The position numbers and the translations under genes are program-made. The notes beneath the pieces were generated by a model. The model saw only the letters and a program-made list of their open reading frames with translations. It was not told the origin of the DNA and did not search any database. Source: a virus (lineage: Duplodnaviria; Heunggongvirae; Uroviricota; Caudoviricetes). From it: a stretch of DNA of 49,715 bases. The stretch covers positions 1 to 49,715 of the IMG/VR virus record IMGVR_UViG_2851949629_000006. The stretch is one strand, 5' to 3'. Positions 8,274 through 44,039 of this stretch are shown piece after piece; the first letter of the stretch is position 1; the number at the start of each line of letters is the position of its first letter.

Positions 8274-8303
8274 GGCCGTTTTTATAATCCGGCCCGGCGT
8301 TTT

Positions 8304-28062: not shown

Positions 28063-28500
28063 ATGATCACCGACAAACTGTTGATGTTCTCCGAAGCTCA
28101 GGCGGTTACGAATACCGCGGCTTCTACTGACGTAATCGATCTCGGTCCAATTGACGGAAAACGTCGTGATATCGGCGTGGGTTACCCGCTTGAGTTTTGG
28201 GCGCTGGTTAACACAGCCGCCGCAGCAAGCGGTGATGCAACTGTAAACATCCAGTTGCAGACGAGTGAGAATAACACCTCATGGACCACTATTTATGATA
28301 GTGGCGCACTGGCAAAGACCATCCTGACAGCAGGTAAGCGAGTTGTTTCTGCAAAGGTGCCTGCCGGTGTTCAGCGATATCTGCGTGTTAACTACTCCGT
28401 CGCAACTGGCCCACTAACGGCTGGCGAATTCACTGCTGGTATCAGTCTTGATGTTGATGCCAATACGCCGTATCCGATCCGCTCAAAAGTAACTGGTTAA
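28063..28500 (+). CDS. hypothetical head protein (possible decoration protein)
   Basis: 145-aa ORF directly downstream of the capsid gene. Confidence 0.4.
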   Translation: MITDKLLMFSEAQAVTNTAASTDVIDLGPIDGKRRDIGVGYPLEFWALVNTAAAASGDATVNIQLQTSENNTSWTTIYDSGALAKTILTAGKRVVSAKVPAGVQRYLRVNYSVATGPLTAGEFTAGISLDVDANTPYPIRSKVTG

Positions 28501-29220: not shown

Positions 29221-29825
29221 TGGCCTCTGTAGTAGAGATCTGCAATCGTGCGCTGTCCAATATTGGCAATAGCCGCAGCATTAACAGCCTGACGGAAGCC
29301 AGCAAGGAAGCGGGGGAATGTTCGCTGCACTTTGAGGCCTGTCGTGATGCTGTGCTTTCTGATTTTGACTGGAACTTTGCTACCAAACGCGTGGCGCTTG
29401 CAGATACGAGCAATCCACCGCCTGACTGGGAATATGCGTACCAGTACCCGTCAGATTGTCTGCGCATTACTGAAATTATGCTTCCTGGTGTACGCAATCC
29501 AACAGCAGCAATGCGCGTTCAGTACGAAGTTGGTGCAGACACCAACGGAACAGGAAAGTTGATCTACACAGACCAGCCTCAGGCATGGCTCAAGTATGTC
29601 TCTCGCGTTTCAGATGTGAACATGTTTGATGCCATTTTTATGGAGGCGTTGGCCTGGCGTCTTGCGGCAGCTATTAACATGGCGCTGACTGGGAATGCAG
29701 ACCTCGGTACGTTTGCCCTCAATATGTACAATCGCGTGATTCTTAGTGCTGGCTCGCATAGCCAGAATGAATCACAGGAACCACAGCCACCGGTTGATGA
29801 GTTTACCATTGCGAGGTTGTCCTGA
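29220..29825 (+). CDS. tail tubular protein A-like (T7 gp11-like) candidate
   Basis: 201 aa; position immediately before an ~820-aa protein mirrors the T7 gp11/gp12 pair; N-terminal ICNRALSNIG loosely resembles the gp11 N-terminus. Confidence 0.4.
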   Translation: MASVVEICNRALSNIGNSRSINSLTEASKEAGECSLHFEACRDAVLSDFDWNFATKRVALADTSNPPPDWEYAYQYPSDCLRITEIMLPGVRNPTAAMRVQYEVGADTNGTGKLIYTDQPQAWLKYVSRVSDVNMFDAIFMEALAWRLAAAINMALTGNADLGTFALNMYNRVILSAGSHSQNESQEPQPPVDEFTIARLS

Positions 29826-32296
29826 TGGCTATCAGTTGGATCCAGCCCAGCTTTGCTGGTGGTGAGATTGGGCCGTCGTTGTACGGACGTATCGACATGG
29901 CGAAGTACCAGGTGGCATTGCGCAAGTGCGATAACTTTATCGTGCGGCAGTATGGCGGCGTTGAGAATCGACCTGGTACGCGTTTTGTCGGTGCCGCCAA
30001 ATACCCAAATCGGAAATGCCGCCTGATCCCGTTCCAGTTCTCGACGGTTCAGACCTATGCTCTGGAGTTCGGACACCAGTACATGCGCGTTATCAAAGAT
30101 GGTGCGTTGGTGCTGAACAGCAGCAATGTTATTTATGAAATTGCCACGCCATATACTGAAGCCGATCTGTTCCGAATTAAATTTACGCAAAGCGCCGATG
30201 TGCTTACGCTGGTTCACCCGGCATACCCGCCGAAAGAGTTGCGCCGCTATGCGCATGATAACTGGCAACTGGTTGATGTGGTAACGAAGAACGGGCCATT
30301 TGAAGATATCAATATTGACGAGTCAGTGACGGTTTATGCCAGCGCCAGCACCGGGACAATTACGTTAACGGCAAACGCCTCTATTTTTGGCGCGGAGCAG
30401 GTAGGCAAATTGTTCTATCTGGAACAGCCTGCAGTGGATTCAGTGCCGGTATGGGAAACCAGTAAGAGTACGTCGATTGGCGATATTCGCCGTGCAGACA
30501 GTAACTACTATCGCGCCGTTACAGCAGGCAAAACAGGCACTTTGCGCCCTTCGCATACAGAAGGCACATCATGGGATGGCTGGGGCGGATCCGGTGATGA
30601 TGATACTGGCATTGAGTGGGAATATCTGCACAGTGGTTTTGGCATTGCCCGTATCACTGCTGCAAATGGAACTACTGCAACTGCCGAGGTGATTTCCTAT
30701 ATCCCTTCGCAGGTCGTGGGCGAGGATAATGCCAGCTATAAATGGGCTAAATATGCCTGGAACAGTGTTAATGGTTATCCTGGCACTGTTGTTTATTATC
30801 AACAACGTCTTTACTTCGCCGCATCGACTGCGTTCCCTCAGACTATCTGGGCCAGCCGTACCGGGGATTATAAGGATTTTGGCAAAAGCAATCCTACGCA
30901 GGATGACGACAGAATTATCTACACCTATGCCGGGCGTCAGGTTAATGAGATCCGTCACCTGATTGATGTTGGTTCTCTGGTGGCGCTGACTTCCGGAGGT
31001 GAGTACGTCATCACCGGCGACCAGAACAAAGTGTTAACCCCATCATCATTTGCATTCAGCTCTCAGGGATCAAATGGCTCAAGCAACGTCCCACCAATTG
31101 CTGTGGCGAATATTGCTCTGTTCGTTCAGGAGAAAGGCAGCGTTGTCCGTGATCTGGCCTACTCATTCGATGTTGACGGCTATCAGGGGAACGACCTGAC
31201 CATCCTTGCCAATCATCTTTTTCAGAAGCACAGCATTGTTGACTGGTGCTTCTCTATTGTCCCTTACTCCAGCGCCTTCTGCATTCGTGATGACGGTAAA
31301 TTACTGGTGATGACCTATCTGCGTGATCAGCAGGTTTTTGCATGGGCACCACAATCCAGTACCGGAAAATATGAAAGCACATGCAGTATCAGCGAAGGCA
31401 ATGAAGATGCGGTGTATTTCGTCGTTAACCGAACCGTTAACGGGCAAACAGTGAGATACATCGAGAGGCTGTCCAGCCGTTTATTTACCAGCGATGAAGA
31501 TGCTTTCTTTGTTGATTCTGGCCTTAGCTATGATGGAAGAAATACGTCTGACAGAACGATGATCATCACTGGTGGTTCTGGCGAATGGGATTACCGCGCG
31601 GAATATACAATCAGTGTTTCTGGTGGTGCGTACTTCACCAGTAGTGATGTCGGTGCTCAACTACAGTTCCCTTATACCGGAACTGATCCTGATACTGGCG
31701 ATGAAGTGTCAAAAGAATTACGTTGCGACATCATTTCTGTAACCAGCAATACCGCTGTAGTGGTTCGTGCTAACAGGAACGTCCCGCCATCCCTCAGGAA
31801 TGTGGCTACCACGAACTGGCAGATGGCGCGCCGGACATTTGGCGGCCTGTCTCATCTTGAAGGCCAGACCGTAAACATTCTCTCTGATGCGAACGTGGAA
31901 CCACAGAAAGTGGTTTCCGGAGGTGCCGTCACGCTGGAATCACCTGGGGCTGTTGTGCACATCGGCCTGCCAATAACTGCTGAATTCGAAACACTGGATA
32001 TCAACATTAACGGACAGGAAACGCTGCTGGACAAAAAACAGGTGATCCCGTCCGTTACTCTGGTTGTGAATGCCAGTCGCGGCATCTGGGCGACTACGCC
32101 CGGCGGTAAATGGTACGAATATCCACAGCGTGAATTCGAGTTCTACGATGATCCTGTTGATGACGCTACCGGAAAAGTAGAAGTGAAACTGGACAGTAAC
32201 TGGGGCAAAAACGGACGTGTAAGAATCCGTCAGCTTGACCCGTTGCCGCTGTCTGTTCTTGCCGTTATTCCTCGTCTTACTGTTGGGGGATTCTGA
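29825..32296 (+). CDS. tail tubular protein B-like (T7 gp12-like) candidate
   Basis: 823 aa, Gly/Thr-rich beta-type composition; assignment by size and synteny only. Confidence 0.4.
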   Translation: MAISWIQPSFAGGEIGPSLYGRIDMAKYQVALRKCDNFIVRQYGGVENRPGTRFVGAAKYPNRKCRLIPFQFSTVQTYALEFGHQYMRVIKDGALVLNSSNVIYEIATPYTEADLFRIKFTQSADVLTLVHPAYPPKELRRYAHDNWQLVDVVTKNGPFEDINIDESVTVYASASTGTITLTANASIFGAEQVGKLFYLEQPAVDSVPVWETSKSTSIGDIRRADSNYYRAVTAGKTGTLRPSHTEGTSWDGWGGSGDDDTGIEWEYLHSGFGIARITAANGTTATAEVISYIPSQVVGEDNASYKWAKYAWNSVNGYPGTVVYYQQRLYFAASTAFPQTIWASRTGDYKDFGKSNPTQDDDRIIYTYAGRQVNEIRHLIDVGSLVALTSGGEYVITGDQNKVLTPSSFAFSSQGSNGSSNVPPIAVANIALFVQEKGSVVRDLAYSFDVDGYQGNDLTILANHLFQKHSIVDWCFSIVPYSSAFCIRDDGKLLVMTYLRDQQVFAWAPQSSTGKYESTCSISEGNEDAVYFVVNRTVNGQTVRYIERLSSRLFTSDEDAFFVDSGLSYDGRNTSDRTMIITGGSGEWDYRAEYTISVSGGAYFTSSDVGAQLQFPYTGTDPDTGDEVSKELRCDIISVTSNTAVVVRANRNVPPSLRNVATTNWQMARRTFGGLSHLEGQTVNILSDANVEPQKVVSGGAVTLESPGAVVHIGLPITAEFETLDININGQETLLDKKQVIPSVTLVVNASRGIWATTPGGKWYEYPQREFEFYDDPVDDATGKVEVKLDSNWGKNGRVRIRQLDPLPLSVLAVIPRLTVGGF

Positions 32297-32760
32297 TGAT
32301 CGATGTTCGAATTATTCCCGCCACCGAAGAGCATCTTCAGATGATTTTGCCGGATGTTCGTCAGGCTGATATTGACGAACTGTATGCGGTATCGCTGATG
32401 ACTACCGAAGATGCGCTGCGTGTTGGTCTTCGCACTGCGACTATGGCCTGGTCAGGGTTCGCGAACGGAGAACTGGTAACCATGTTTGGTGTATCTCCGG
32501 CGTCAATGATCGGTGGCAATGGTACACCCTGGCTGGTCGGAACCAGCCGTATTGAAAAATATCAGAAGACATTTCTTCGCCACTGCCGACCTGTATTGCA
32601 GCAGATGCTGGCAGTTTATCCGCGCCTGGAAAACTACGTCGACGAGCGAAACCATGTTGCCAAAGCATGGCTGCACTGGCTTGGATTCAGGCTTGAAGAA
32701 GCCGCGCCTTATGGTGCTCTTGGTCTTAATTTCCACAGATTTCACATGGAGAGAAAATAA
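32296..32760 (+). CDS. internal virion protein candidate (gp13-like by position)
   Basis: 154-aa ORF with ATGA overlap after the gp12-like gene. Confidence 0.35.
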   Translation: MIDVRIIPATEEHLQMILPDVRQADIDELYAVSLMTTEDALRVGLRTATMAWSGFANGELVTMFGVSPASMIGGNGTPWLVGTSRIEKYQKTFLRHCRPVLQQMLAVYPRLENYVDERNHVAKAWLHWLGFRLEEAAPYGALGLNFHRFHMERK

Positions 32761-33305
32761 TGTGCGATCCGGTTATTGCTGGTGGCGCAATGCTCGCCAT
32801 GAGTGGCATTCAGGCATACACCCAGTACCAACAGGGAAAGTATGCCTCGAAGGTTGCAGAAGCGAACGCAGATATAGCCACTGCTCAGGCAAATGATGCA
32901 ATAAACAGAGGTAACGCTGAAGCTGAGCAACGGCGCAGAGAGACCCGACAGCGGCTTGGTACACAGGCGGCGACAATGGGGGCTACCGGCACTGATTTAT
33001 CTACAGGTAACGCGCTGGATATATTTGGCGACACTGCCCAGTTTGGCGCTCTTGATTCGCTGACGACGGTGAATAACGCGCAACGCGAGGCTTACGGTTA
33101 TCAGGTTCAGGCTGCCAACTATAAAGCAGAAGCCAGTTCAGCCCGTAAACAGGGGAATGTGGGAGCAGCAACAACATTGCTCACTGCGCCTCTGAAGGCA
33201 TACGGTGCGTACCAGATGTTTGGTGGGACGTGGAGTCCGTTTACTCAAAGCACCCCTGCGCCAATCGGGGCAGCAGCAGGAACCAGATTACCCGGAGGAT
33301 TATAA
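32760..33305 (+). CDS. internal virion protein candidate (gp14-like by position)
   Basis: 181-aa Ala/Gly/Gln-rich protein. Confidence 0.35.
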   Translation: MCDPVIAGGAMLAMSGIQAYTQYQQGKYASKVAEANADIATAQANDAINRGNAEAEQRRRETRQRLGTQAATMGATGTDLSTGNALDIFGDTAQFGALDSLTTVNNAQREAYGYQVQAANYKAEASSARKQGNVGAATTLLTAPLKAYGAYQMFGGTWSPFTQSTPAPIGAAAGTRLPGGL

Positions 33306-35818
33306 TGCCAGTCGTACCAACAGTATCCGGACGTCAGGTTGAGAGCCGTGGAGTTCAGTCAGCAGGCTTGCAGACGTTTTCTCAGCCAGGTATTGGTGAT
33401 GCTTTTGTTCGGGCAGGGACAGAAGCAATTGATGTTTTTGGTCAGGCAAAACAGCGTGCCAATATCGCTCTGGCTCAGGAGGCATCTCTTAACCTCAGTC
33501 AGATAAGCAGCGATCTGCTGAATAACCCTGAAACAGGTTTGCTTAACCTGAAAGGGAAAAATGCTATTGGAAAAGGTCAGGAGTATACGCAGCAGTTTGA
33601 TACTCAGGTCGAACAACTGGCTATGTCGCTGCCGGATGAACAGGCTCGTAATGCTTTCATGCAGCAGGCGCAGCAGCAGCGCATTCAGTTCACTACGCAG
33701 GCAGGGCGGCACGAGATAGGGCAAATAAATGCCTACGAAGAAGGCCAGTTTCAGGCTACGCTGCTGAACAATGGTAAAAATGCCGCAGCATTGTATGGCG
33801 ACAACGCCGCATACGTATTGGCTAATAAGCAAACTTTCCAGCAAATTGAGGATTACGGCATTGCACATGGTTGGAGTGACGAGCAAATCCAGGCCAAGAA
33901 AATCGAGTTTAAAGAAGCAACAGCAAAAGCAACTGCTCAAAATGCTATTGGAGCAAACTATCTTCAGGTAAGACAGCAAAACGGCGAGTTAAGCGATACT
34001 GCTGCTGGATCTCGCCGTGCTGTAGCAGATAGTGGCTCTTCCGATCGTACCCGCGGTATACGCAACAATAACCCCGGCAATCTTGAATACAGCAAAACTA
34101 ATCCGTGGGTTGGGCAGACTGGTGATGATGGTCGCTTTGCTAAATTCGAAACACCTGAATACGGTATTCGTGCATTAGGGCGGAACCTGATGTCGTATCA
34201 GCGGCAGGGTATTGATACCGTCAGCGGGATAATTAATCGCTGGGCACCGCCCACTGATAAAAATGACACAATGTCGTATATCAAAGCAGTGTGCGAACAA
34301 CTTGGCGTTTCTGCTGATGAGCCTCTCGATGCATCTAATCCGGATACCCTGAAGGCGCTTTGTGCAGCCATTATCCATCATGAAAACGGTAGCCAGCCAT
34401 ACAGTGATCAGCAGTTAACTGATGGTGTTAGTGCTGCGCTGGGGCTTTCTCAGCTACCGACAAAAAATAAACGTTATACCGGTGTAGCCTGGTTCGATGC
34501 TTTAAGTGAATCAGATCAGGCCAGCGTGTTGCGACAGACTGATGCACTAGCCAGACAACAGCAGGCTGAATATAAAACGATGCTCGACAGCCGGGTTCGC
34601 GATGCGACGGCTGCGTATATGCGTGGCGTTGAATTTCCTAACCCACCTGGTGAGGATGATTTTATTGCAGTTTATGGAGTCAGAGAAGGAAACCTGCGAT
34701 ATACCGAGTTTAAGAATACGCAGATCGCCGGACAGTATATAGGCTCTTTCCGCAACATGCCGACAAGCAGCATTACAGCATATGTTGAGCAATTACGCCC
34801 GGATACTGGTGATACAGGGGAGGGGTATGCGGCACGCGCAGCTCTTTATGACAACGTTGTTTCGGCTGCAAATCAGGTGATAAAGCAGCGGCAGTCGGAT
34901 CCTGTTCAGTTCTCTCTTGCCTCCGGACAGGCAAAGCCTATCGACATGAGCAATAAGGATAACTTTGGACAGAGCGTTGCCTTGCGTGCCGCTCAGGTCA
35001 GTGACCTTGCTAAGTCATATGGCACTCCACTGACGTTCTTTTCCAAAGACGAGGCCAATCAGATCGGTGTTTTCTTTCGTGATGCTCCAGTTTCCCAACA
35101 GGCAGCATATCTCGATACCATCAGGCAGAGCACTGGTGGTGGGCAGGTGTATATGTCAGCACTACAGCAGATCAGTGCCAACGCTCCATCTGCTGCCGTT
35201 GCCGGGATACTGATGGATAAGCCTGGTGGTATTTTGGCAGAAAAAAACTGGTTTAATCCGGATGTTTCCGTGTCTCCTGAAACCGCTGCGCAGACAATTC
35301 TTGCTGGCGCGGCGGCTCGTAAAGGTACTGATGATGCGAAAGGTATTCCGATGCCTAAAGATGCTGATCTTCGCCTTGAGTTTTCTGACATGGTGAAGGA
35401 TGCATTTGCTGGTGATGCTCAGGGGGCATCAATGGCATACGAGATCGCAAAGGACTATTACGCTGGTGTGATGGCGAAAAAAGGCGTGGTTTCAGGCGAA
35501 ATTGACAATGATATCTGGAAACAGGCTGTTAACGTAGCTACAGGTGGCGTGCATGACTATAACGGAATGGGGAATGTTCTTTTGCCGTGGGGAATGTCTG
35601 CAGAGCAATTCGATAAGCAGGTTAATCAGGCTTGGAATGAACAAGTTGTTGGCACAGGGATAAAAACACCGCCTGGTCAGTATGGTTTGCAAAGTTACGG
35701 CGATAGTCAGTACCTGGTGAAACTTGGTACTGGTTATCTGCTAAAAGATGATGGTTCTCCCGTTGTTCTTGATCTGACACAGAAGCGTCAGAGATTCTCC
35801 GGAGATATTCCGCAATGA
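33305..35818 (+). CDS. internal virion/ejection protein (large)
   Basis: 838 aa from the ATG at 33305 (TAATG overlap); one of three consecutive large proteins between tail-tube and fibre genes, the usual position of ejectosome proteins. Confidence 0.45.
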   Translation: MPVVPTVSGRQVESRGVQSAGLQTFSQPGIGDAFVRAGTEAIDVFGQAKQRANIALAQEASLNLSQISSDLLNNPETGLLNLKGKNAIGKGQEYTQQFDTQVEQLAMSLPDEQARNAFMQQAQQQRIQFTTQAGRHEIGQINAYEEGQFQATLLNNGKNAAALYGDNAAYVLANKQTFQQIEDYGIAHGWSDEQIQAKKIEFKEATAKATAQNAIGANYLQVRQQNGELSDTAAGSRRAVADSGSSDRTRGIRNNNPGNLEYSKTNPWVGQTGDDGRFAKFETPEYGIRALGRNLMSYQRQGIDTVSGIINRWAPPTDKNDTMSYIKAVCEQLGVSADEPLDASNPDTLKALCAAIIHHENGSQPYSDQQLTDGVSAALGLSQLPTKNKRYTGVAWFDALSESDQASVLRQTDALARQQQAEYKTMLDSRVRDATAAYMRGVEFPNPPGEDDFIAVYGVREGNLRYTEFKNTQIAGQYIGSFRNMPTSSITAYVEQLRPDTGDTGEGYAARAALYDNVVSAANQVIKQRQSDPVQFSLASGQAKPIDMSNKDNFGQSVALRAAQVSDLAKSYGTPLTFFSKDEANQIGVFFRDAPVSQQAAYLDTIRQSTGGGQVYMSALQQISANAPSAAVAGILMDKPGGILAEKNWFNPDVSVSPETAAQTILAGAAARKGTDDAKGIPMPKDADLRLEFSDMVKDAFAGDAQGASMAYEIAKDYYAGVMAKKGVVSGEIDNDIWKQAVNVATGGVHDYNGMGNVLLPWGMSAEQFDKQVNQAWNEQVVGTGIKTPPGQYGLQSYGDSQYLVKLGTGYLLKDDGSPVVLDLTQKRQRFSGDIPQ

Positions 35819-37662
35819 GTTACTTTGGCCTTAATCCAGTAAACCAGAATCAGCAGCTTGACGAAGCAGCATCAAATCCAGCTGGCTTTAACAGCGATGT
35901 TGGTTTTTTCGACAATGCTGTAGGAGCGGCATTGTCTGGTTTGTACTCCGGGCTGGTGGCAAAGCCAGATCAGTTGCTCTGGGCAGGGATGGATAAAATC
36001 GTATCCCCGATTGCTCAGTTTGTTAACGAAAACACCTCGCTCAATGACACTTCAGTTTCATACATTGCCGAGCAGAGAAAACTAGCAGAGCAGCAGGTTA
36101 AGCGGCTGACGCCTGATGCCGCGACAACCGGAACCGCCGGGCAGGTTCTTTATGGGTTGTTCGATATGGGCGGGCAGGCTGTTATCGGTACAACGCTCGG
36201 TGGTCCGGTCGGAGGTGCTGCGGCGGTAACTTCGCTACAGGGTTTTTCTGAGTTTGAACGGCTGACAGCACAGGGTGTTGATTTCAGGACGGCGCAGGAA
36301 GCGGGATTAGTGCAGGGTATTACTGCTGGTGCCGGAACACTGATCCCTATGAGCCTCGGGTTACGTGCTGGTGGTGCGCTGGCGGAAGGTGTGGCGGCTC
36401 AGCTTGCGCGGACGGGTGAAAGTTCAGTGCGACGCGCCGCAGCAACAGCAGTACGTGCAACGCCAGATATTGCCTATGCCGCAGGTACAAATATTGCGTT
36501 CGGTATGGCACAGCGTGGGCTTACTGCAAAAACGCTTCGTGATGGTGGCTATAGCGAAATGGCTAACCAGTATGATGTGTTGGATCGACAGGCAATTGCT
36601 ATTGATGCTGTTCTTGGGGTGGCGTTTGGTGGTGTCGGCAGATTTATTAACTCTCACGGTGAGGCTACAAGCACCCCCAATTTTTCACCAGTTGATGTCG
36701 ATGCTGCACTGGCGGCGAATGCCGCTCATCATGCTGAAATTGATATTTCTCCCGGCGTGCCGATCAACGTGCTTTCGCGCAATTCTCACATTCAGGCTCT
36801 GCGAAAAGCTATGTCTGATGTTAGCCAGGGGAGACCTGTAGACGTTGCCAGCATTGTTGAGTCTGCATCTTTCAGTGAAATTCCTGGGCGCAAGAATCTG
36901 CTGTCTCAGGCAGTTAATGAGGCTCTGTCATCTGTAGATGATGGAGCAACAGCGCGCGCTATCGAAAATCGGTTGCTTGAAGAACGGGCTGCGCAGCTTT
37001 TGCCGCGAGGCGATAGACAGGTTTACCAGTCTGAAATCGCTAATAGCCAACGAATTATTGAAAATCTCACTGAACAGCGCGCACAAATTCTTGCAGAAGA
37101 GCCAACCGGTAGCGGTAAAGCTTTGTCTCGTGCTCGATCAGATAAACAGGCCAGACTTCGGGATATTGACCAACGAATCCGGCAGGCACAAGAACGCCTG
37201 GAATTTTCCCGTAACGCGTTGGCACCGCACGAGCCTGGAGGTCAGTTTTTTGAAGCTCGAGCAGAACTGGCACGGCGACAGCAGGCAGAAAGTGAACTTA
37301 ATGCTCAGGCTGTTTCATTCTATAAAACAGCAGAGGTCAGGACGCCAGACGAAGTAGCTCCTTTTGAGCCCGGTAAGATATTGCAACAGGCAGAACAAAA
37401 AATGATGGCAGATCCGGCAGGAGATATTGATCTGCGTATAGCTGAAGACTCGCTGCTTGAATCACCTGACATGATAATCACCGTGCTGGATGATGATGGT
37501 AATCCACAATCGCGCAGAGCGCGTGAAGTACTGGATGATGATGGTAATCCACAATCGCGCAGAGCGCGTGAAGTACTGGATGAAGCGAACAGGGAAAGTG
37601 AGCAGGCAATACAGGATTCCAGCCTGTTTGATGTCGCTGTGGCGTGTTTCTTGAGAGGTTAA
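35815..37662 (+). CDS. internal virion/ejection protein; contains a 45-bp in-frame tandem duplication near the C-terminus
   Basis: 615 aa; perfect tandem repeat at 37486-37530 and 37531-37575 encoding LDDDGNPQSRRAREV twice. Confidence 0.45.
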   Translation: MSYFGLNPVNQNQQLDEAASNPAGFNSDVGFFDNAVGAALSGLYSGLVAKPDQLLWAGMDKIVSPIAQFVNENTSLNDTSVSYIAEQRKLAEQQVKRLTPDAATTGTAGQVLYGLFDMGGQAVIGTTLGGPVGGAAAVTSLQGFSEFERLTAQGVDFRTAQEAGLVQGITAGAGTLIPMSLGLRAGGALAEGVAAQLARTGESSVRRAAATAVRATPDIAYAAGTNIAFGMAQRGLTAKTLRDGGYSEMANQYDVLDRQAIAIDAVLGVAFGGVGRFINSHGEATSTPNFSPVDVDAALAANAAHHAEIDISPGVPINVLSRNSHIQALRKAMSDVSQGRPVDVASIVESASFSEIPGRKNLLSQAVNEALSSVDDGATARAIENRLLEERAAQLLPRGDRQVYQSEIANSQRIIENLTEQRAQILAEEPTGSGKALSRARSDKQARLRDIDQRIRQAQERLEFSRNALAPHEPGGQFFEARAELARRQQAESELNAQAVSFYKTAEVRTPDEVAPFEPGKILQQAEQKMMADPAGDIDLRIAEDSLLESPDMIITVLDDDGNPQSRRAREVLDDDGNPQSRRAREVLDEANRESEQAIQDSSLFDVAVACFLRG

Positions 37663-37667
37663 ATTAA

Positions 37668-40142
37668 ATGAGACAGGAATGTATACAAGCGGTCCAGCAG
37701 GCGGCGCAGCGCACGTTAACGGCGCGAGAAATACAGAACATTGAAGACCGCGTTTATCGAAATATGCGCTCCATTGCTCGTGATGACCCGATGTCGTGGA
37801 GACAACTTTCCGAATCAGAGCGGCTATATCGAGCAGCACAATTGGCATCTGAAGAATTACAGCGAGAAGCGGCATTAAAGAAACGTCGTGTGGCTCTCAC
37901 TATAGCCGCGCGTCAGAGATTGGATAAATTTATCAATAGCTATCAAGGGGCTGATGGGAAACTTGGAGCTCTTAACCGTACTATAGCTTTTAATGCAGAC
38001 GGTAAATCTAATTTCCTCTCTGTTGAATCCAGAACAAAAGCCACCCGTGATTATGCATTGAGTCAATTGCAGGAGGCATTCGAAGCAGTTGATCCTCGCT
38101 TTTTTGGTCTGTTTGAAGATGAAGCGGGCGTACGTGACCTGGTATATGAAATGCGGGGGCAAAATACTGGCAATGCTAAAGCAAGAAAAGGTGCTAAGGC
38201 GTGGAGAGAAGTTACAGAGCTGCTGCGCCGCCGGTTTAATGATGCTGGTGGGGACATTGGCTATCTCGAAAACTGGGGGATCCCTCAACATCATTCTATG
38301 GAAAAGGTTGGGGCAGTATCAAAGGATAAGTGGGTTAGCGATGTTATAGGTAAGCTGGATCGCAAATATTATATCCGAGCTGATGGACAACTGATGAACG
38401 ATGCCGAGTTGTCTTCATTTCTTGGAGAGGCTTATAACACGATCGCTACTGGTGGGCTGAATAAGCTTACTGATACCGGAATGCGAATTTCCGGCGCACG
38501 TGCTAACCGTGGTAATGCATCACGACAGATACATTTCAAAGATGCAGATTCCTATCTGCAATATCAGCAACTTTATGGCGATCGCTCTCTATGGGAAATC
38601 ATGGTCGGTCACCTGGAAGGTATCAGTAAAGATATTGCACTGGTGGAAACATATGGCCCAAACCCCGATCATGTTTTCCGCTCTCTTCTTGATCAGGTGA
38701 AGGCAGAAACGGCAACAGCTAACCCGAGTAAAACCGGTAAAGTCGAGCGGCTGGCGAACAACACAGAGAATCTGTACAACTTTATTTCCGGAAAGACACA
38801 GCCTGTAGCGAATCCGCACATCGCGCGATGGTCTGACAATATCCGCAACTGGCTGGTTGCCAGCAGACTCGGATCCGCGTTGCTGTCATCGTTCTCTGAT
38901 CTTGGAACCATGTATCTGTCTGCGAAGGTTACCAACCTTCCAATGAGCCAGTTATTCCGTAACCAGCTTGAAGCTATGGACCCAACGAACCGCACTGAGC
39001 TTGCGCGGGCACGCCGCGCTGGTCTGGCGATGGAATCTCTACTTGGCAGCGTTAACCGCTGGGCGATGGATAATATGGGGCCGTCTGTGTCTCGTTGGGC
39101 GGCAACGGCGGTAATGCGTGCCAGTGGGCTTACAGCATGGTCAGATGCGCACAAGCGCGCCTATGGCGTAACCATGATGGGAAGCCTGGGAGAAGTAGTG
39201 TCACGGACACCAGACCTTCGTAGCCTTGATGACTCTGATTTTCGTATCCTGAAAAGCAAAGGGATTACTGACACAGACTGGAGCGTATGGAAGTTGGCGC
39301 AACAGGAGGACTGGGGGAACGGTAATAATACGATGCTGACGCCGGAAAGCATTATGCGTATCCCTGATTCAGCAGTTAAACATCTTGGTGAGCCTGAACG
39401 CGTGAAATTTGAGGCAATGCGTAAACTGCTCGGTGCCGTAACTGAAGAAGTTGATATGGCTGTTATTACACCGGGAGCACGTGAGCAACTGATAACCGGT
39501 TCTGGTATTCAGCGTGGAACATGGAAAGGTGAATTAACGAGAAGTGTTTTCCTGTTTAAATCGTTCCCTATCTCGGTTGTTATGCGTCACTGGTCACGCG
39601 CTATGGGTATGCCGTCTGCTGGTGGGCGTGCGGCATATATTGCGACGTTTATTGCCAGTACGACCATTCTTGGCGCTTTGTCGCAGCAACTTAACGACCT
39701 TGCGTCTGGTCGTAATCCTCGAGAGATGACAGGAGAAGATGCCGCAAAATTCTGGCTTGGTGCTCTACTGAAAGGTGGTGGTCTTGGCCTGTACGGTGAC
39801 TTTTTATTGTCAGATCACACTAGGTACGGAAGCGGCACGCTGGCGTCGATGCTTGGCCCGGTAGCTGGTCTGGTTGATGACGTAGTGAAGATTGCTCAGG
39901 GCATACCGTTAAATGCTGTGGAAGGGAAGAGTGAGCAGACTGGTGGTGATCTGGTGAAGCTGGGGAAAGGTTTGATGCCTGGTGCGAATCTCTGGTACTT
40001 GAAGGCGGCTCTCGATCACATGATCTTTAACCAAATGCAGGAGTATTTTTCACCAGGCTATTTGCGTAAAATGGAGCAACGTTCGAAGAAAGAGTTTAAC
40101 CAGACATACTGGTGGCGACCTCAGGATGTCACTCCGCAATAA
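37668..40142 (+). CDS. internal virion/ejection protein (large)
   Basis: 824-aa ORF, last gene of the structural block before the accessory island. Confidence 0.45.
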   Translation: MRQECIQAVQQAAQRTLTAREIQNIEDRVYRNMRSIARDDPMSWRQLSESERLYRAAQLASEELQREAALKKRRVALTIAARQRLDKFINSYQGADGKLGALNRTIAFNADGKSNFLSVESRTKATRDYALSQLQEAFEAVDPRFFGLFEDEAGVRDLVYEMRGQNTGNAKARKGAKAWREVTELLRRRFNDAGGDIGYLENWGIPQHHSMEKVGAVSKDKWVSDVIGKLDRKYYIRADGQLMNDAELSSFLGEAYNTIATGGLNKLTDTGMRISGARANRGNASRQIHFKDADSYLQYQQLYGDRSLWEIMVGHLEGISKDIALVETYGPNPDHVFRSLLDQVKAETATANPSKTGKVERLANNTENLYNFISGKTQPVANPHIARWSDNIRNWLVASRLGSALLSSFSDLGTMYLSAKVTNLPMSQLFRNQLEAMDPTNRTELARARRAGLAMESLLGSVNRWAMDNMGPSVSRWAATAVMRASGLTAWSDAHKRAYGVTMMGSLGEVVSRTPDLRSLDDSDFRILKSKGITDTDWSVWKLAQQEDWGNGNNTMLTPESIMRIPDSAVKHLGEPERVKFEAMRKLLGAVTEEVDMAVITPGAREQLITGSGIQRGTWKGELTRSVFLFKSFPISVVMRHWSRAMGMPSAGGRAAYIATFIASTTILGALSQQLNDLASGRNPREMTGEDAAKFWLGALLKGGGLGLYGDFLLSDHTRYGSGTLASMLGPVAGLVDDVVKIAQGIPLNAVEGKSEQTGGDLVKLGKGLMPGANLWYLKAALDHMIFNQMQEYFSPGYLRKMEQRSKKEFNQTYWWRPQDVTPQ

Positions 40143-40151
40143 GGAAGTGTT

Positions 40152-40325
40152 GTGTTTTTAATTATTTTGAGTGTGATAATTTCTGGTGGATTGTTATTTA
40201 TTGACCGCTACAAATATTTTCTTAACCCTCAGACTCAAGCTATTTGCTGGTTCATCTTTGTTGTGCAGGGAGTAGTTCTTGTTGCAAGCCTTATTGAGGG
40301 GAGGCCTCTTATTTTTACTGGGTAA
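40152..40325 (+). CDS. small membrane protein (57 aa)
   Basis: GTG start with AAGGAAG RBS 4 nt upstream; two hydrophobic segments; not in the ORF track (below its length cutoff); AT-rich. Confidence 0.4.
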   Translation: MFLIILSVIISGGLLFIDRYKYFLNPQTQAICWFIFVVQGVVLVASLIEGRPLIFTG

Positions 40326-40337
40326 ATAGGTGACTAC

Positions 40338-40634
40338 ATGCAAGCTATAGGATTCATTGTTTATATCGTCGTTGGTCTTTTTCAGTTGGCAGCAATTATG
40401 GCTGGGCTTGAATCATGGTGGGGATTGCACTGGATAATTGCAGCCCCCATTGCTTTCATCGTGAGCTATATTCCATTTGTTGGAGCGATTGTTGGTATGG
40501 TTGGCGCTGTGGATGTATGGCGGTGGGAGTGGTGGCAGGCTGGCCTTCTCTTCTTTGGTGGGATCATCTTTGCTATTGTCTGCGGTGGAATGTCATCATT
40601 TTTCGAACGGCTATCATTCAGAAAAGGAACGTGA
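40338..40634 (+). CDS. integral membrane protein (98 aa, about 3 TM segments)
   Basis: ATG with AGGTGA RBS; hydrophobic throughout; followed by an intrinsic terminator. Confidence 0.5.
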   Translation: MQAIGFIVYIVVGLFQLAAIMAGLESWWGLHWIIAAPIAFIVSYIPFVGAIVGMVGAVDVWRWEWWQAGLLFFGGIIFAIVCGGMSSFFERLSFRKGT

Positions 40635-40642
40635 CATGTCAC

Positions 40643-40667
40643 AGGCCGCTTTCGCGGCCTTGTTTTT
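40643..40667 (+). terminator. rho-independent terminator (AGGCCGCTTTCGCGGCCT + TGTTTTT)
   Basis: 7-bp GC stem, 4-nt loop and T-run; the 18-bp core GGCCGCTTTCGCGGCCTT recurs at 43564-43581. Confidence 0.65.
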
Positions 40668-40728
40668 AACGAATGCCACCGCCACCCGGGCGGGAATCCG
40701 CAGACACAAAAAAGCCCGCGTCGCGGGC

Positions 40729-41268
40729 TTACCAAAACTTGTACCACGGGGATTTATCCTTCAATGGACAATCCTTCCATCGTGTGGCCAACCATTCATA
40801 TTCTTTAAAATATGTGTTTATGTTTTCTTTTTCTCTAATAGCTTGTATAAGAGGTAGCGCAATCTGATAGTTATTTACAACGGAGCTGTAAAATACTTCC
40901 TTAATCATGGTCTCATCATAAGTTTTCCGCTTCACGCTCACAGCCATGCGTTCGTAGAAACCTAGACAGTAAATTATTTCTCTCTTCTCTATCTTTTCTT
41001 CATCCGTAAGATCAGCCTGCCCATTGCTTGGATACATATAAGAGCGGAATGATTTGTTCGATTCGTGAATGCGGCGCATAGTAGATAGGCCTTTCTTATA
41101 ATCTACATCAAACCTGCTTTCACCAAGGAATACTGAAGTGTGTACTTTTCTCGCTGTATTTACATTATAAATAATAGTAGCGATAGCTATGAACAAGCCA
41201 AGCGAAACCGCGACTGCACTTACGATTTGAGCCACAGCCATGGCAAATTGCATTTCTTCACTTAACAC
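40729..41268 (-). CDS. N-terminally membrane-anchored protein (179 aa), accessory gene
   Basis: GTG start with GGAGA RBS; one N-terminal TM helix (FAMAVAQIVSAVAVSLGLFIAIATIIY) then a soluble domain; AT-rich codon usage. Confidence 0.5.
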   Translation of the reverse strand: MLSEEMQFAMAVAQIVSAVAVSLGLFIAIATIIYNVNTARKVHTSVFLGESRFDVDYKKGLSTMRRIHESNKSFRSYMYPSNGQADLTDEEKIEKREIIYCLGFYERMAVSVKRKTYDETMIKEVFYSSVVNNYQIALPLIQAIREKENINTYFKEYEWLATRWKDCPLKDKSPWYKFW

Positions 41269-41289
41269 AAACTGTCTCCAGACATGAAA

Positions 41290-41309
41290 ACGGGGCCTAA
41301 TGGCCCCGT
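41290..41309 (-). terminator. intrinsic terminator downstream of the antirepressor gene
   Basis: Hairpin ACGGGGCC-TAAT-GGCCCCGT; on the minus strand it is followed by TTTTCAT. Confidence 0.5.
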
Positions 41310-41485
41310 CATAAAACTATCCGAATGTTAAACGCCTTCGTACTCGTCAAATTTTCTCATGTGGGCTCCTCCTGTATCGGTGCCTAATCGCTATGGATCA
41401 CCCGTAAGGTAATAGTACTCTATTCACCCCCGGTCTGCAATCTGTACAGAATTATTTAAAGGCACATCCCTGTGCCGCCGTTCTG

Positions 41486-42142
41486 TCAGAAGAACCCTGC
41501 CTTGTCGTTGATGTACTCCGCGTGAGTCTGGATATCACGCAGGCATTTGCTCACACCGACGATGTAGCAGAACATGGTGGTCAGCTCCGCCGCCGCGCCC
41601 GATACGTCGTGCCCGTCGTCCTGTAACTGGTTCAGCAGATTCATCAGCAGTGAGTTCTCCGTCAGGCCGAGAACACCAGACGGAGAATGAATCAGACTGC
41701 GGTAGCCAGGCTTCAGTGGGGCGCTGTATTCTTTTTTGTCTTCCAGCTTGATCGCCTCCATAATGGCGGGCATGAAGCCTGACAAGACCTTCTCCACTTT
41801 TGTTTCTTGTTGTCTTAAACGTTTCTCGCATTCAATGAAGTAGCGTCGCACCTGGCGACCTTTTTCGTTACGCTCGACCATTGCCAGCTCTTTGGCTGTA
41901 TCGAGGGTGAGGTGGTACTCTTTGCGGTTGTGGCCGCCTCTACCAGATGTTTGCTTTCCCAAATTGGAAAGCAAAATATAGTCTTGATTTTCAATGAATT
42001 CGTATTCTGAAATTCGATTTGTAATCCATGCTGCAAACACCTTTTTAACACCTAAAAAAGCGTGCAGATCGCGGGCATTACAAAGTAGGGCTGTTTCGTT
42101 AGATATAGTGCCGTTGAATACGGGGATGAGTTGAGCGTTCAT
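41486..42142 (-). CDS. antirepressor (AntA/Ant-like)
   Basis: 218 aa; N-terminal ...[22 protein letters not shown]... and ...[35 protein letters not shown]... resemble the AntA/AntB N-terminal domain. GGAG RBS. Confidence 0.6.
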
Positions 42143-42296
42143 GATGGTGTCTCCACTTAGCGAATTACATCACCACCGCAACGCCAATTACTGGTGGTGA
42201 ACTGAACAAGGTTGGCGTACCGGCCTAAGTGGTACCGGCGTCCTTTCGGACCCCTGCCCAGCCCACCATAATTCGGATATAGCTGTGCTTAACGCA

Positions 42297-42320
42297 TAAA
42301 AAAACCACGTCTGGCGTGGT
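42297..42320 (-). terminator. intrinsic terminator/attenuator within the ant leader (or 3' end of a small RNA)
   Basis: Minus strand reads ACCACG-CCAGA-CGTGGT followed by seven T (plus strand A-run 42298-42304); located about 110 nt downstream of the predicted ant promoter and about 150 nt upstream of the ant start codon. Confidence 0.5.
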
Positions 42321-42410
42321 ATGCGCCACTTAGTAACTCGGGACGCCAATCCCGGCACTGGATTTTGCCAGTGCCCGATTACTATGGCACAAGAGGAGTG
42401 CGATGTAAAT

Positions 42411-42533
42411 TTACCGTAAAGGTAATAATAAATGCATAACTCACGTTATTTCAACCCTATGTGGTTTGATTGATCCCATTTCAGAAAATACCTGCCTATT
42501 TTTTTGCCAGTATGCGTATACTTTCGATAGAAT
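42411..42533. promoter_or_regulatory. divergent promoter region: operator TTACCGTAAAGGTAA (42411-42425), motif TATGTGGTT (42458-42466), and a plus-strand sigma70-like promoter TTGCCA-17bp-TAGAAT (42505-42533)
   Basis: Operator identical in form to O_L/O_R; on the minus strand a TTGAAA -35 with the -10 overlapping the operator is positioned to drive the ant leader. Confidence 0.5.
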
Positions 42534-42562
42534 GTTAACCCTAGAGGTAGTTGGGGGTGCCC

Positions 42563-43066
42563 ATGAACACGAAGAGAGTTGCAGCGATGAGGCATAGACG
42601 CTTGACCTTGAAAAAGTCTGAAAAAGAAAAAGAGAAAAAGATGGTGATTGAAGCAGCCGCCATAGCAACTGCCAATGCCATCAGGATTCATGATGAAGAA
42701 GTTGAGCAAAAATACCCGGTTATGTTCATCACTGAATACGACCAGCATGAGGCATTGTTAAAAATCCGGGGCACATCTTTTGAAGGAATCTTGGCAGATA
42801 AGCTTCATCGTGCCTCATGTCAAACGAATATAATGCGACCTTACGAGTCAAGGCTAATCGAAACTGGACGCTCCAAGGATAAGCAGCAATTAGTTGAGAT
42901 GATAAAGCGGTATTATAAGTCATCTTTTAAGCCTACAGCGTCACATGAGGTTGTAATGCGAGAAGTACCAAAGATGTCTGTTGAAAAATCGCATGCAATC
43001 TCGCGCAGGATGTTTGCACGCACTGCTGAAGATATGGCTCAGGAGCTCTACGACGATGCCGAATAA
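42563..43066 (+). CDS. hypothetical protein, upstream partner of the YafO-like gene (candidate antitoxin/immunity)
   Basis: 167 aa from the ATG at 42563 (ORF track starts at TTG 42551); basic N-terminus; stop overlaps the downstream start (ATGCCGAATAA). Confidence 0.45.
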   Translation: MNTKRVAAMRHRRLTLKKSEKEKEKKMVIEAAAIATANAIRIHDEEVEQKYPVMFITEYDQHEALLKIRGTSFEGILADKLHRASCQTNIMRPYESRLIETGRSKDKQQLVEMIKRYYKSSFKPTASHEVVMREVPKMSVEKSHAISRRMFARTAEDMAQELYDDAE

Positions 43067-43562
43067 ATTCCAGGGGTTGGTTCACCCTGGAATTTTTGGG
43101 AAGGACCCTGAGCTAATACCTATCAAAAACGCGTTCATAGATCACTGGCGCTACGGTCATCATAAGGATTTCGGAAAGGACACTCTGTTTCGGGATCCAC
43201 CGAAAGAGATGCTGGAATATCACATACGCCACGTTCACGTAAACATCGGAAACTATACTGACAAGTTTGGTGAGAGCGGTACGGAACAATGCTGGAAAAA
43301 CTGGGCATCCGGGAAGAAAGACAAGACCACCAACAAGCATAAAAAAATACCAACCAGTGATGTATATGTGATTTATCTTGTAACGTCTGAGCGACATGCG
43401 TTTCTTCTGGATTACTGGGATGAGCCAGCACACAAAAAAGTAGAAATTGACGAACAGAAACAAAAACTTCTTGTCGAGTGTGACAGAATTTTGCGGCGGA
43501 AAAATTTAGAATCCATGCCGCGCGATGCAAGTTTGTGGGACCCGGAATTTTACGACTGTTAA
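43056..43562 (+). CDS. YafO-family toxin-like protein (candidate type II toxin)
   Basis: 168 aa; segments HHKDFGKDTLFRDP and YHIRHVHVNIGN resemble the YafO segments DTFGRDALYDD and ERVAHIHLANE as I recall them. Confidence 0.45.
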   Translation: MPNKFQGLVHPGIFGKDPELIPIKNAFIDHWRYGHHKDFGKDTLFRDPPKEMLEYHIRHVHVNIGNYTDKFGESGTEQCWKNWASGKKDKTTNKHKKIPTSDVYVIYLVTSERHAFLLDYWDEPAHKKVEIDEQKQKLLVECDRILRRKNLESMPRDASLWDPEFYDC

Positions 43563-43563
43563 T

Positions 43564-43581
43564 GGCCGCTTTCGCGGCCTT
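43564..43581. terminator. hairpin GGCCGCTTTCGCGGCCTT between convergent genes (second copy of the 40644 hairpin)
   Basis: Exact 18-bp repeat of 40644-40661; 6-bp GC stem with TTTC loop; T-rich flank. Confidence 0.5.
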
Positions 43582-43586
43582 TAAAT

Positions 43587-43862
43587 TTACCGGGTTTGTT
43601 TTCGTAATTGTTCGGCACAATAGTCGAGATGTGTTTGCAGATCCTGCATAGACATCTGTGAGCTGGTGACGTAGTTAATCAGTGCAGTCAGTTCGGCAAG
43701 TGGGCCATCGACATTAAATCCATCCTTATCGAGATCCCGGAGTAATTTCATCAAGTGCGATCCCTCCACCAGTGACCTGACGCCTCCCGGCGTGTGAATC
43801 CTTTCGGTAAATCCGTCTTCCAGTGGATAGTGATACCGCTGCATCTTATCTTCTCCATGCAA
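43587..43862 (-). CDS. small protein paralogous to the antirepressor C-terminal domain
   Basis: 91 aa; ...TPGGVRSLVEGSHLMKLLRDLDKDGFNVDGPLAELTALINYV...MQDLQTHLDY... parallels ...[42 protein letters not shown]...[10 protein letters not shown]... of the 41486-42142 product. Confidence 0.5.
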   Translation of the reverse strand: MHGEDKMQRYHYPLEDGFTERIHTPGGVRSLVEGSHLMKLLRDLDKDGFNVDGPLAELTALINYVTSSQMSMQDLQTHLDYCAEQLRKQTR

Positions 43863-43920
43863 TAACTGTATAAATATACAGTACCAAATAATTTATTGTC
43901 TATCCAGCACGTTTTGCAAA

Positions 43921-43975
43921 TCACCTGAAAGGTAATATCTGTTCGTATTCACAGTCTGTCTATCCATATGTGGTT
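43921..43975. promoter_or_regulatory. divergent promoter region with operator TCACCTGAAAGGTAA (43921-43935) and motif CCATATGTGGTT (43964-43975)
   Basis: Between the Ant-C-like gene (minus) and the tail fibre gene (plus). Confidence 0.5.
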
Positions 43976-44039
43976 TTTCAGGTAATAAAATAACCCAGCA
44001 TGCGGCGCAACGGGTGCTGCGACTATCTGGAGATTTAAA

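What the first reader, a model, noticed from the sequence alone, without database searches (positions are those of the whole stretch)
37486..37575. Perfect 45-bp in-frame tandem duplication in an ejection-protein gene
CTGGATGATGATGGTAATCCACAATCGCGCAGAGCGCGTGAAGTA occurs twice in tandem, with a partial third start. It duplicates the peptide LDDDGNPQSRRAREV near the C-terminus of the 615-aa internal protein. An exact tandem copy implies a recent slippage or recombination event and possible length polymorphism among related prophages.
Basis: seen in the sequence. Interest (0 to 1): 0.45.

Follow-up and report, generated by a model that had tools for sequence, protein, structure and literature searches.

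The report
Private 45-bp duplication in prophage gene
One E. coli prophage carries a fresh, exact 45-base in-frame tandem duplication in a virion-protein gene, made by copying slippage between two 8-base repeats; it occurs in no other known relative and is an ordinary kind of mutation.

Summary
CTGGATGATGATGGTAATCCACAATCGCGCAGAGCGCGTGAAGTA occurs at 37486-37530 and again at 37531-37575, followed by its first 8 bases. It lies in frame in the 615-aa ORF 35815-37662, the homologue of phiV10 p19 / epsilon15 gp16.

The duplication is a private, very recent event.
- All relatives carry one copy: 17 phage records, about 312 complete E. coli genomes, and 119 of the 120 best protein matches (600 aa, on about 2,400 contigs).
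- The junction 32-mer is absent from three large contig collections.
- Four contigs carry a gene identical at all 1,803 bases apart from the 45-bp gap. One contig matches the window over 20 kb except for 2 SNPs and a 12-bp indel.

The single-copy allele already has CTGGATGA at both ends of the 45-bp unit. This is the signature of a microhomology-mediated tandem duplication, a common class; roughly 13,000 variable tandem-duplication loci are reported in E. coli.

The insert sits in the family's most conserved C-terminal module and stretches a spacing that is normally 40-47 residues to 60. Its effect is unknown. It is probably neutral in the lysogen and possibly harmful to the phage.

The "ejection protein" label rests on gene order and literature only. 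An assembly artefact cannot be excluded without reads. Interest is low.

The parts
35815..37662 (+). Gene for the 615-aa homologue of phiV10 p19 / epsilon15 gp16 (PHROG 1145). All relatives are 600 aa.
   Evidence: ORF list and translation. phrog_1145 match with E=0, 1073 bits. 97.4-97.7% DNA identity to phiV10-like phages, whose gene is 1803 nt. phiV10 annotation 'similar to epsilon15p16'.
37486..37530 (+). Copy 1 of the 45-bp unit (codons 558-572, LDDDGNPQSRRAREV).
   Evidence: Alignments place the 45-bp gap of every single-copy relative here; its placement within the repeat is arbitrary.
37531..37575 (+). Copy 2 of the 45-bp unit (codons 573-587), identical to copy 1.
   Evidence: In the AlphaFold model this copy takes the native position leading into the C-terminal helix.
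37486..37493 (+). Microhomology arm CTGGATGA, first occurrence (ancestral left arm).
   Evidence: phiV10 reads ACCGTG-CTGGATGA-37 bp-CTGGATGA-AGCGAAC.
37531..37538 (+). Microhomology arm CTGGATGA at the duplication junction.
37576..37583 (+). Microhomology arm CTGGATGA, third occurrence. This is the 'partial third start' and the ancestral right arm (LDE).
37511..37523 (+). GC-rich palindrome CGCGC-AGA-GCGCG inside copy 1, repeated at 37556-37568 in copy 2. It could form a 5-bp hairpin in single-stranded DNA. Any role in slippage is speculative.
   Evidence: DNA fold of 37486-37583: both hairpins appear in the MFE and centroid structures, z = -2.64.
32760..33305 (+). Upstream neighbour: T7 gp14-family internal virion protein (epsilon15 gp14 homologue).
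   Evidence: Pfam PF24072, E = 3.2e-8, above the curated cutoff. PHROG 418 'internal virion protein'.
33305..35818 (+). Upstream neighbour: epsilon15 gp15 homologue. It is 837 aa from the ATG at 33305; the mechanical ORF begins at the GTG at 33230.
   Evidence: PHROG 992 match begins at residue 26 of the ORF. The gene is called as 837 aa in L002-L005.
37668..40142 (+). Downstream neighbour: epsilon15 gp17 homologue, which Hardies et al. assign to the T7 gp16 (IVP-D) family.
   Evidence: PHROG 684 'virion structural protein'. PMC4819975 Table 2.

Best explanation
**What it is.** This is a real, very recent, strain-private microhomology-mediated tandem duplication (MTD). It lies in the gp16-like virion-protein gene of a phiV10-like (Uetakevirus) prophage of E. 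coli.

**How it formed (inferred).** The ancestral single-copy gene already contained the 8-base direct repeat CTGGATGA twice, 45 bases apart. The two arms encode L-D-D and L-D-E. During replication of the lysogen or of the phage, a nascent strand that had just copied the second arm came off the template. It re-paired with the first arm and copied the intervening 45 bases again. The product is arm-37 bp-arm-37 bp-arm.

**Why it is in frame.** The arm spacing is 45 bases, a multiple of three, so the insertion is automatically in frame. It adds 15 residues, a second LDDDGNPQSRRAREV.

**Where it sits in the protein.** The insertion lies inside the conserved C-terminal module of the protein. That module reads PDxxI - turn - short strand - long helix ending in CFLRG.

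**Likely consequence (inferred).** The change has no known function. In the lysogen it is not exposed to selection. For the phage it is most likely neutral to mildly damaging.

**Shown:**
- the exact duplication;
- its absence from all relatives;
- identity of the rest of the gene to a single-copy allele;
- the pre-existing 8-bp arms.

**Inferred:**
- replication slippage as the molecular route;
- the phenotypic consequence;
- the virion or ejection role of the protein.
For: **The duplication is exact**
- Period 45, 2.2 copies, 100% identity.

**Microhomology arms pre-exist in the single-copy allele**
- The phiV10 allele has CTGGATGA at both ends of the 45-bp unit.
- The duplication boundaries coincide with these arms.

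**The event is recent**
- The genes in L002-L005 show 0 substitutions over 1,803 nt and differ only by the 45-bp gap.
- L003 is 100% identical over 11,029 nt upstream. Over about 20.3 kb it differs from the window by only 2 SNPs and one 12-bp indel.
- Both copies carry the minority 'R' allele (QSRRAREV). This allele also exists in single copy in 24 of 119 relatives.

**The allele is private**
- 17 of 17 phage records have the 1,803-nt form or lack the site.
- About 312 complete E. coli genomes match with 416 nt instead of 461 nt. None spans the junction in one piece.
- The junction 32-mer gives 0 hits in genome contigs, viral contigs and metagenome contigs.
- Only one 615-aa sequence (WP_129547267.1, one contig) stands against 119 distinct 600-aa sequences on about 2,400 contigs. 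The contig total is my sum of the column.
- More distant relatives (Tyrion, SPN1S, BUCT711) also have one copy.

**The class is known**
- MTDs are described in PMC8639346.
- They are reported to dominate tandem duplications in bacteria, with about 13,000 variable tandem-duplication loci in E. coli and about half with arms longer than 3 bp (bioRxiv 10.64898/2026.02.28.708716).

**The substrate is ordinary**
- This arm pair is one of 9 pairs of at least 8 bp within 150 bp in the gene, and one of 137 in the prophage.

**Structural context**
- The C-terminal module is conserved as far as epsilon15 gp16 and in representatives of less than 35% identity.
- The Pro551-to-Cys611 spacing is 40-47 aa in 81 of 88 representatives. 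It is 60 aa here, the longest observed.
- In the AlphaFold model (mean pLDDT 77), copy 2 occupies the native strand-plus-helix position. Copy 1 forms a lower-confidence extension.
Against: - The allele rests on a single assembly, and no reads were available, so a sequencing or assembly artefact cannot be excluded.
- Replication slippage cannot be told apart from other short-homology routes (sister-strand template switching, or annealing promoted by the prophage's RecET-like protein) on sequence alone.
- Nothing tested here shows whether the 615-aa protein works.
- The model of the duplicated segment has only moderate confidence (block 561-570, pLDDT about 70).
Confidence: 0.82

Rival explanations
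1. The duplication is a sequencing or assembly artefact. The true genome would have the usual single copy, and the extra 45 bases would have been introduced during assembly or polishing.
For: - The two-copy form exists in exactly one record on one contig, among about 2,400 contigs that carry the gene.
- The junction is absent from every other collection searched.
- The look-up of encoding contigs has no independent assembly with this product.
Against: - A perfect 45-bp head-to-tail copy bounded exactly by pre-existing 8-bp arms is the expected product of a biological slippage event. It is not a typical assembler error.
- The unit is shorter than any modern read and lies in unique sequence.
- The other apparent 'tandem duplications' in the window (1,958 bp and 583 bp) turned out to be genuine nested IS66 insertions with 8-bp target-site duplications, not misassemblies.
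Confidence: 0.08
2. The duplication is real but formed by recombination rather than replication slippage. Possible routes are unequal exchange between sister chromosomes or between concatemeric phage genomes, perhaps promoted by the prophage's own RecE/RecT-like recombinase.
For: - The prophage encodes the phiV10 p37-like RecET fusion region (window about 10.9-12.7 kb matches phiV10 29,722-31,482).
- The product of unequal exchange at the 8-bp arms would be identical to what is seen.
Against: - Eight bases is far below the homology usually needed for RecA- or RecT-type pairing. This rests on general knowledge and was not tested here.
- The literature on such events favours replication-linked mechanisms.
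Confidence: 0.07
3. The 15-residue insertion is a selected, functional variant. For example, it could alter the C-terminal module of an injected protein to evade a host defence or change an interaction. Alternatively, the site could be a recurrent hotspot of length variation.
For: - The insertion is in frame.
- It lies in the most conserved part of the protein.
- Another genome has a deletion with one endpoint inside the same 45-bp unit (P0257).
Against: - The allele is a singleton with zero accompanying substitutions.
- No second lineage has it, and no three-copy form exists.
- Being in frame follows automatically from the 45-bp arm spacing.
- The Pro-to-Cys spacing of the module is tightly kept at 40-47 residues across 81 of 88 distant relatives. 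This argues that lengthening is not favoured.
Confidence: 0.03

Closest known systems
Microhomology-mediated tandem duplication (MTD), also called slipped-misalignment duplication between short direct repeats (PMC8639346; bioRxiv 10.64898/2026.02.28.708716)
   Same: - It is a 1x-to-2x head-to-tail duplication of a short unit (45 bp).
- Perfect microhomology arms (8 bp) are already present in the single-copy allele.
- The junction is clean and the insertion preserves the reading frame.
- It is found in one assembly of the species only, which matches a 'variable TD locus'.
   Different: Nothing differs in kind. Formation and reversion rates were not measured. It lies in a prophage structural gene that is silent in the lysogen.
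Epsilon15 gp16 / phiV10 p19 family (PHROG 1145): virion-associated protein of Uetakevirus podophages, encoded between the gp15 and gp17 genes
   Same: - It is full-length homologous: 97% to phiV10-type proteins, 74-82% to Tyrion, SPN1S and BUCT711, and 38% to epsilon15 gp16.
- The gene order is the same.
- It has the same C-terminal ...F.VA.ACFLRG motif.
   Different: It is 15 residues longer than every other phiV10-type member, because of the duplicated LDDDGNPQSRRAREV.
T7-type internal virion (ejection) proteins gp14/gp15/gp16 (IVP-B/C/D)
   Same: - The position in the operon matches. The gene lies after a T7 gp14-family gene and the gp15 homologue, and before the gp17 homologue that Hardies et al. 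place in the T7 gp16 family.
- The predicted structure is almost entirely helical.
- BFVD fold hits include 'putative internal virion protein' and 'large polyvalent protein associated' domains.
   Different: - There is no detectable sequence similarity to T7 gp15 (no Pfam hit) or to any PDB chain.
Contingency loci / VNTRs in phage and bacterial surface-protein genes
   Same: It is a tandem repeat inside a coding region of a virion protein.
   Different: - There are only two copies.
- The unit length is a multiple of three, so no frame switching is possible.
- There is no copy-number variation among hundreds of relatives.

Membership tests
Microhomology-mediated tandem duplication (MTD) | Two head-to-tail copies where close relatives have one copy | tested here: met
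   TRF reports 2.2 copies at 100%. Relatives lack exactly 45 bp.
Microhomology-mediated tandem duplication (MTD) | Identical short sequence (microhomology arm) at both ends of the unit in the single-copy allele, coinciding with the breakpoints | tested here: met
   CTGGATGA (8 bp) flanks the unit in phiV10 and in L002-L005. The window reads arm-37-arm-37-arm.
Microhomology-mediated tandem duplication (MTD) | Clean junction with no foreign bases, and recent origin (copies identical) | tested here: met
   The copies are identical. The rest of the gene has 0 substitutions against the single-copy allele.
Microhomology-mediated tandem duplication (MTD) | Present in the DNA of the organism and not an assembly product | not testable with these tools
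   No reads are available. The allele is known from one contig only.
Epsilon15 gp16 / phiV10 p19 family (PHROG 1145) | Significant full-length sequence similarity | tested here: met
   phrog_1145 match with E=0, 1073.6 bits, residues 1-575 plus a second stretch. Alignment A1.
Epsilon15 gp16 / phiV10 p19 family (PHROG 1145) | Conserved gene order gp12-gp13-gp14-gp15-gp16-gp17 | tested here: met
T7-type internal virion / ejection proteins (IVP-C position) | Encoded between the IVP-B (T7 gp14 family) and IVP-D (T7 gp16 family) genes | tested here: met
   PF24072 hit on 32760-33305. The gp17 homologue lies downstream. Assignment from PMC4819975.
T7-type internal virion / ejection proteins (IVP-C position) | Sequence or fold similarity to a characterised ejection protein (T7 gp15, P22 gp20 and others) | tested here: not met
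T7-type internal virion / ejection proteins (IVP-C position) | Physically present in the virion and ejected into the host before the DNA | not testable with these tools
   This needs virion proteomics or cryo-ET. The primary epsilon15 papers were not held in the library.
Variable-number tandem repeat / contingency locus | Copy number varies among related strains | tested here: not met
   The copy number is one in all relatives examined and two only in this window.

The most novel reading that the evidence does not exclude
The conserved C-terminal module of the gp16-like protein (PDxxI...G...CFLRG) might be a length-sensitive functional element of the podophage DNA-delivery machinery. This natural 15-residue insertion would then be a rare, tolerated or even selected variant that changes how the protein behaves during ejection, or lets it escape a host defence. 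In that case the 45-bp unit would be a rearrangement-prone spot; the P0257 deletion endpoint also falls within it.
Probability: 0.03. Interest if true: 0.4.

Novelty: new member of a known kind. Interest (0 to 1): 0.1.

Why it matters
It matters little. The finding is a clean textbook example of a microhomology-mediated tandem duplication caught before any further mutation, in a prophage whose near-identical single-copy relatives are on record.

It has three practical uses:
- a strain- or lineage-specific PCR marker;
- a natural insertion mutant for anyone studying the uncharacterised but widely conserved C-terminal module of the epsilon15 gp16 family;
- a reminder that the 'ejection protein' label for this gene still lacks direct evidence.

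Tried and rejected
1. **Short C-terminal protein query.** I searched the 5.8-billion protein set with a 90-aa C-terminal query to pull out any other two-copy proteins. The candidate step returned only 21 short fragments, so it did not test full-length proteins. None of the fragments had two copies.
2. **First structure prediction.** It used a shallow alignment of two subfamilies and was too poor to use (mean pLDDT 44). It was replaced by a model from 94 diverse sequences.
4. **Possible misassembly.** The 1,958-bp and 583-bp 'tandem' repeats at 2.1-7.2 kb raised a suspicion of an assembly prone to false duplications. This was rejected: they are nested IS66-family insertions with 8-bp target-site duplications.
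5. **RNA or regulatory reading of the repeat.** There is no Rfam match and no terminator. One weak promoter-like site is within chance expectation. The 137-aa minus-strand ORF 37462-37875 overlaps the repeat and was not pursued. Nothing supports it, and the plus-strand gene is conserved.
6. **Special hotspot.** This was rejected: the 8-bp arm pair is one of 137 comparable pairs in the prophage.
7. **Primary epsilon15 papers.** Jiang 2006, Chang 2010 and Guichard 2013 could not be read.
8. **Review table not used.** Table 1 of PMC8954989 lists epsilon15 ejection proteins with sizes that do not fit the epsilon15 record.

Full report
**1. The observation**

The sequence at 37486-37575 is two exact, adjacent copies of CTGGATGATGATGGTAATCCACAATCGCGCAGAGCGCGTGAAGTA.
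- The next eight bases (37576-37583) repeat the first eight bases of the unit.
- Tandem Repeats Finder reports period 45, 2.2 copies, 100% matches and score 196. This is the strongest array in the window by a wide margin.
- The unit begins at codon 558 of the ORF 35815-37662 (615 aa). It duplicates LDDDGNPQSRRAREV (residues 558-572 and 573-587), followed by LDE.

**2. The gene and its setting**

The window is almost entirely a phiV10-like (Uetakevirus) prophage.
- It starts inside the integrase gene (1-1240 matches phiV10 26,927-28,166).
- It runs through the early genes, terminase and the structural genes to the lysis cassette at about 48.1 kb.

The ORF is the homologue of phiV10 p19, which is annotated as similar to epsilon15 gp16.
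- It hits PHROG 1145, of unknown function, with E = 0.
- It has no Pfam family and no sequence relative in the PDB.
- Its neighbours are the homologues of epsilon15 gp12 (tail nozzle), gp13, gp14 (Pfam T7_gp14 family), gp15 and gp17.

Hardies et al. 2016 (PMC4819975) give this reading of the epsilon15 genes:
- gp13 and gp14 are standard internal virion proteins A and B.
- gp17 is a member of the T7 gp16 (IVP-D) family.
- gp15 and gp16 are candidates for the T7 gp15 (IVP-C) position. This rests on size and synteny only, because no sequence similarity could be shown.

My own tests agree with that limit.
- In the viral structure library it matches uncharacterised phage proteins. Some of these are labelled 'large polyvalent protein associated domain' or 'putative internal virion protein'.

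The 'ejection/internal protein' label is therefore plausible but inferred.

**3. How widespread is the duplication?**

It is not widespread.
- Every phiV10-type phage record has an 1,803-nt gene.
- All of the about 312 complete E. coli genomes with the locus match a 461-nt probe over 416 nt.
- None of those genomes spans the duplication junction in a single piece. The three '100% covered' rows are two overlapping pieces within 53-56 nt.
- The 32-base junction sequence has no exact match in one-genome-per-species contigs, IMG/VR viral contigs or JGI metagenome contigs.
- Among the 120 best protein matches in 5.8 billion sequences, 119 are 600 aa, on about 2,400 contigs by my sum of the column. 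One is 615 aa. That one is the window's own protein, WP_129547267.1, seen on a single 5.14-Mb contig.
- More distant members have one copy each: Enterobacter phage Tyrion, Salmonella SPN1S and Klebsiella BUCT711.
- No three-copy form was seen in any of the 257 proteins checked at that point.

**4. How old is it?**

It is essentially new.
- Four contigs from other samples (L002-L005) carry a gene with zero substitutions over all 1,803 shared bases. The 45-bp gap is the only difference.
- L003 is 100% identical to the window over the 11 kb upstream. Over 20.3 kb in all it differs by two SNPs, one 12-bp indel and this duplication.
- Both copies carry the minority allele QSRRAREV. This allele occurs in single copy in 24 of 119 relatives; the rest have QSRSAREV. 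The duplication therefore arose on that allelic background.

**5. Mechanism**

In the single-copy allele the unit is already bracketed by the 8-base direct repeat CTGGATGA. The sequence reads ...ACCGTG CTGGATGA-37 bp-CTGGATGA AGCGAAC....
- The window reads arm-37-arm-37-arm. This is exactly the product expected if a nascent strand ending in the second arm re-pairs with the first arm and copies the interval again.
- This is the defining signature of a microhomology-mediated tandem duplication (PMC8639346).
- A recent preprint reports that such events dominate tandem duplications in bacteria. It counts about 13,000 strain-variable tandem-duplication loci in E. coli, about half with arms longer than 3 bp (10.64898/2026.02.28.708716).
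- The in-frame outcome follows from the 45-bp arm spacing and is not evidence of selection.
- The arm pair is unremarkable. It is one of 9 pairs of at least 8 bp within 150 bp in this gene, and one of 137 in the prophage.
- Each unit contains a small GC-rich palindrome (CGCGC-AGA-GCGCG) that folds as a hairpin in single-stranded DNA. It might favour polymerase pausing, but that is speculation.

**6. Likely consequence**

The C-terminal 50-60 residues are the most widely conserved part of the protein after the N-terminal domain.
- The motif PDxxI...G...A..L..AD..I..A..D...F.AAV.CFLR(G), with an invariant cysteine, recurs in family representatives of only 25-35% identity.
- The family has 1,277 clusters at 50% identity.
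- The spacing from the conserved proline to the cysteine is 40-47 residues in 81 of 88 representatives. The window's 60 is the longest seen.
- In the model, the second copy takes the native place: a short strand leading into helix 584-614 (pLDDT 86-92).
- The first copy forms an extra, less confident extension (pLDDT about 70).
- Both native junctions are kept, so the protein may still fold. However, the insertion lengthens an element whose length is normally constrained.
- In a lysogen the gene is silent, so a neutral or mildly harmful change can persist.

**7. Rivals**

- **Assembly artefact.** It cannot be excluded without reads, because the allele is a singleton. But the structure is what biology predicts, and it lies in unique sequence shorter than a read. 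The window's other apparent tandem repeats proved to be real nested IS insertions with target-site duplications.
- **Recombination instead of slippage.** It would give the same product but is disfavoured by the 8-bp arm length. This rests on general knowledge.
- **Selected or recurrent variant.** It is contradicted by the singleton distribution and by the family's tight length constraint.
- **RNA or regulatory reading.** It has no support.

**8. Verdict**

It is an ordinary, private, very recent microhomology-mediated tandem duplication in a prophage structural gene. It is a new instance of a well-known kind of mutation and of low general interest.

Noticed in passing
window 1550-8753: Three IS66-family elements are nested inside one another, between the prophage integrase gene and the MT-A70 methylase gene.
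- A complete 2.53-kb copy (4071-6602) is flanked by the 8-bp target-site duplication GTCCGTTG.
- It sits inside an identical copy (2114-4070 plus 6603-7185), which is flanked by ATTTTGCG.
- That copy sits inside a diverged, truncated third copy (1550-2113 plus 7186-8753; 84-92% identity).
- At first sight these look like 1,958-bp and 583-bp tandem duplications.
   Followed up: partly
P0257 (70-aa ORF on a 66-kb Logan/ENA contig); corresponds to window about 28,155 joined to about 37,500: In another genome a deletion of about 9.4 kb fuses the N-terminus of the Bbp16-like head protein (MITDKLL...DLGPIDG) to the C-terminus of the gp16-like protein (NPQSRRAREVLDEAN...CFLRG). The junction falls at a shared Asp-Gly inside the same 45-bp unit. 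This is probably coincidence.
   Followed up: partly
window 42659 (in ORF 42551-43066): A 12-bp in-frame indel polymorphism is present among near-identical prophages. L002 and L003 have an extra GCTTATGCTGCT, while the window, L004 and L005 lack it.
   Followed up: partly
L002:1-204 (GCA_017761925.1 contig) against window 26510: In a sister prophage, an IS66-family end identical to the window's IS copies abuts the position equivalent to window 26510, in the protease/scaffold region. The same IS is therefore active in this prophage lineage.
   Followed up: no
window 23624-23700 (- strand): A tRNA-Arg (anticodon TCT) gene lies inside the prophage, between the terminase and portal gene regions. 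That segment (22952-23437) has no counterpart in phiV10.
   Followed up: no
window 35815-37662 and homologues (alignment A3): The gp16-like family (1,277 clusters at 50% identity) shares an undescribed C-terminal motif: PDxxI...G...A..L..AD..I..A..D...F.AAV.CFLR. The motif has an invariant cysteine and a tightly kept length. The conserved N-terminal domain of about 380 aa also occurs at the start of much longer proteins, up to 2,125 aa.
   Followed up: partly
literature: PMC8954989 Table 1 against L009 (NC_004775.2): The review lists the epsilon15 ejection proteins as gp11 (229 aa), gp12 (499 aa) and gp13 (708 aa). These sizes do not fit the epsilon15 record, where gp13 is 154 aa, gp14 is 180 aa and gp12 is over 800 aa. 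They look like values from a P22-like phage.
   Followed up: no
window 40145-48082: The region after the gp17 homologue differs from phiV10.
- It has a DUF4760 gene (40729-41268), an AntA-type antirepressor (41486-42142) and a different 673-aa tailspike (44040-46061). The tailspike matches phiV10 only at its N-terminus.
- It has no O-acetyltransferase gene.
   Followed up: no
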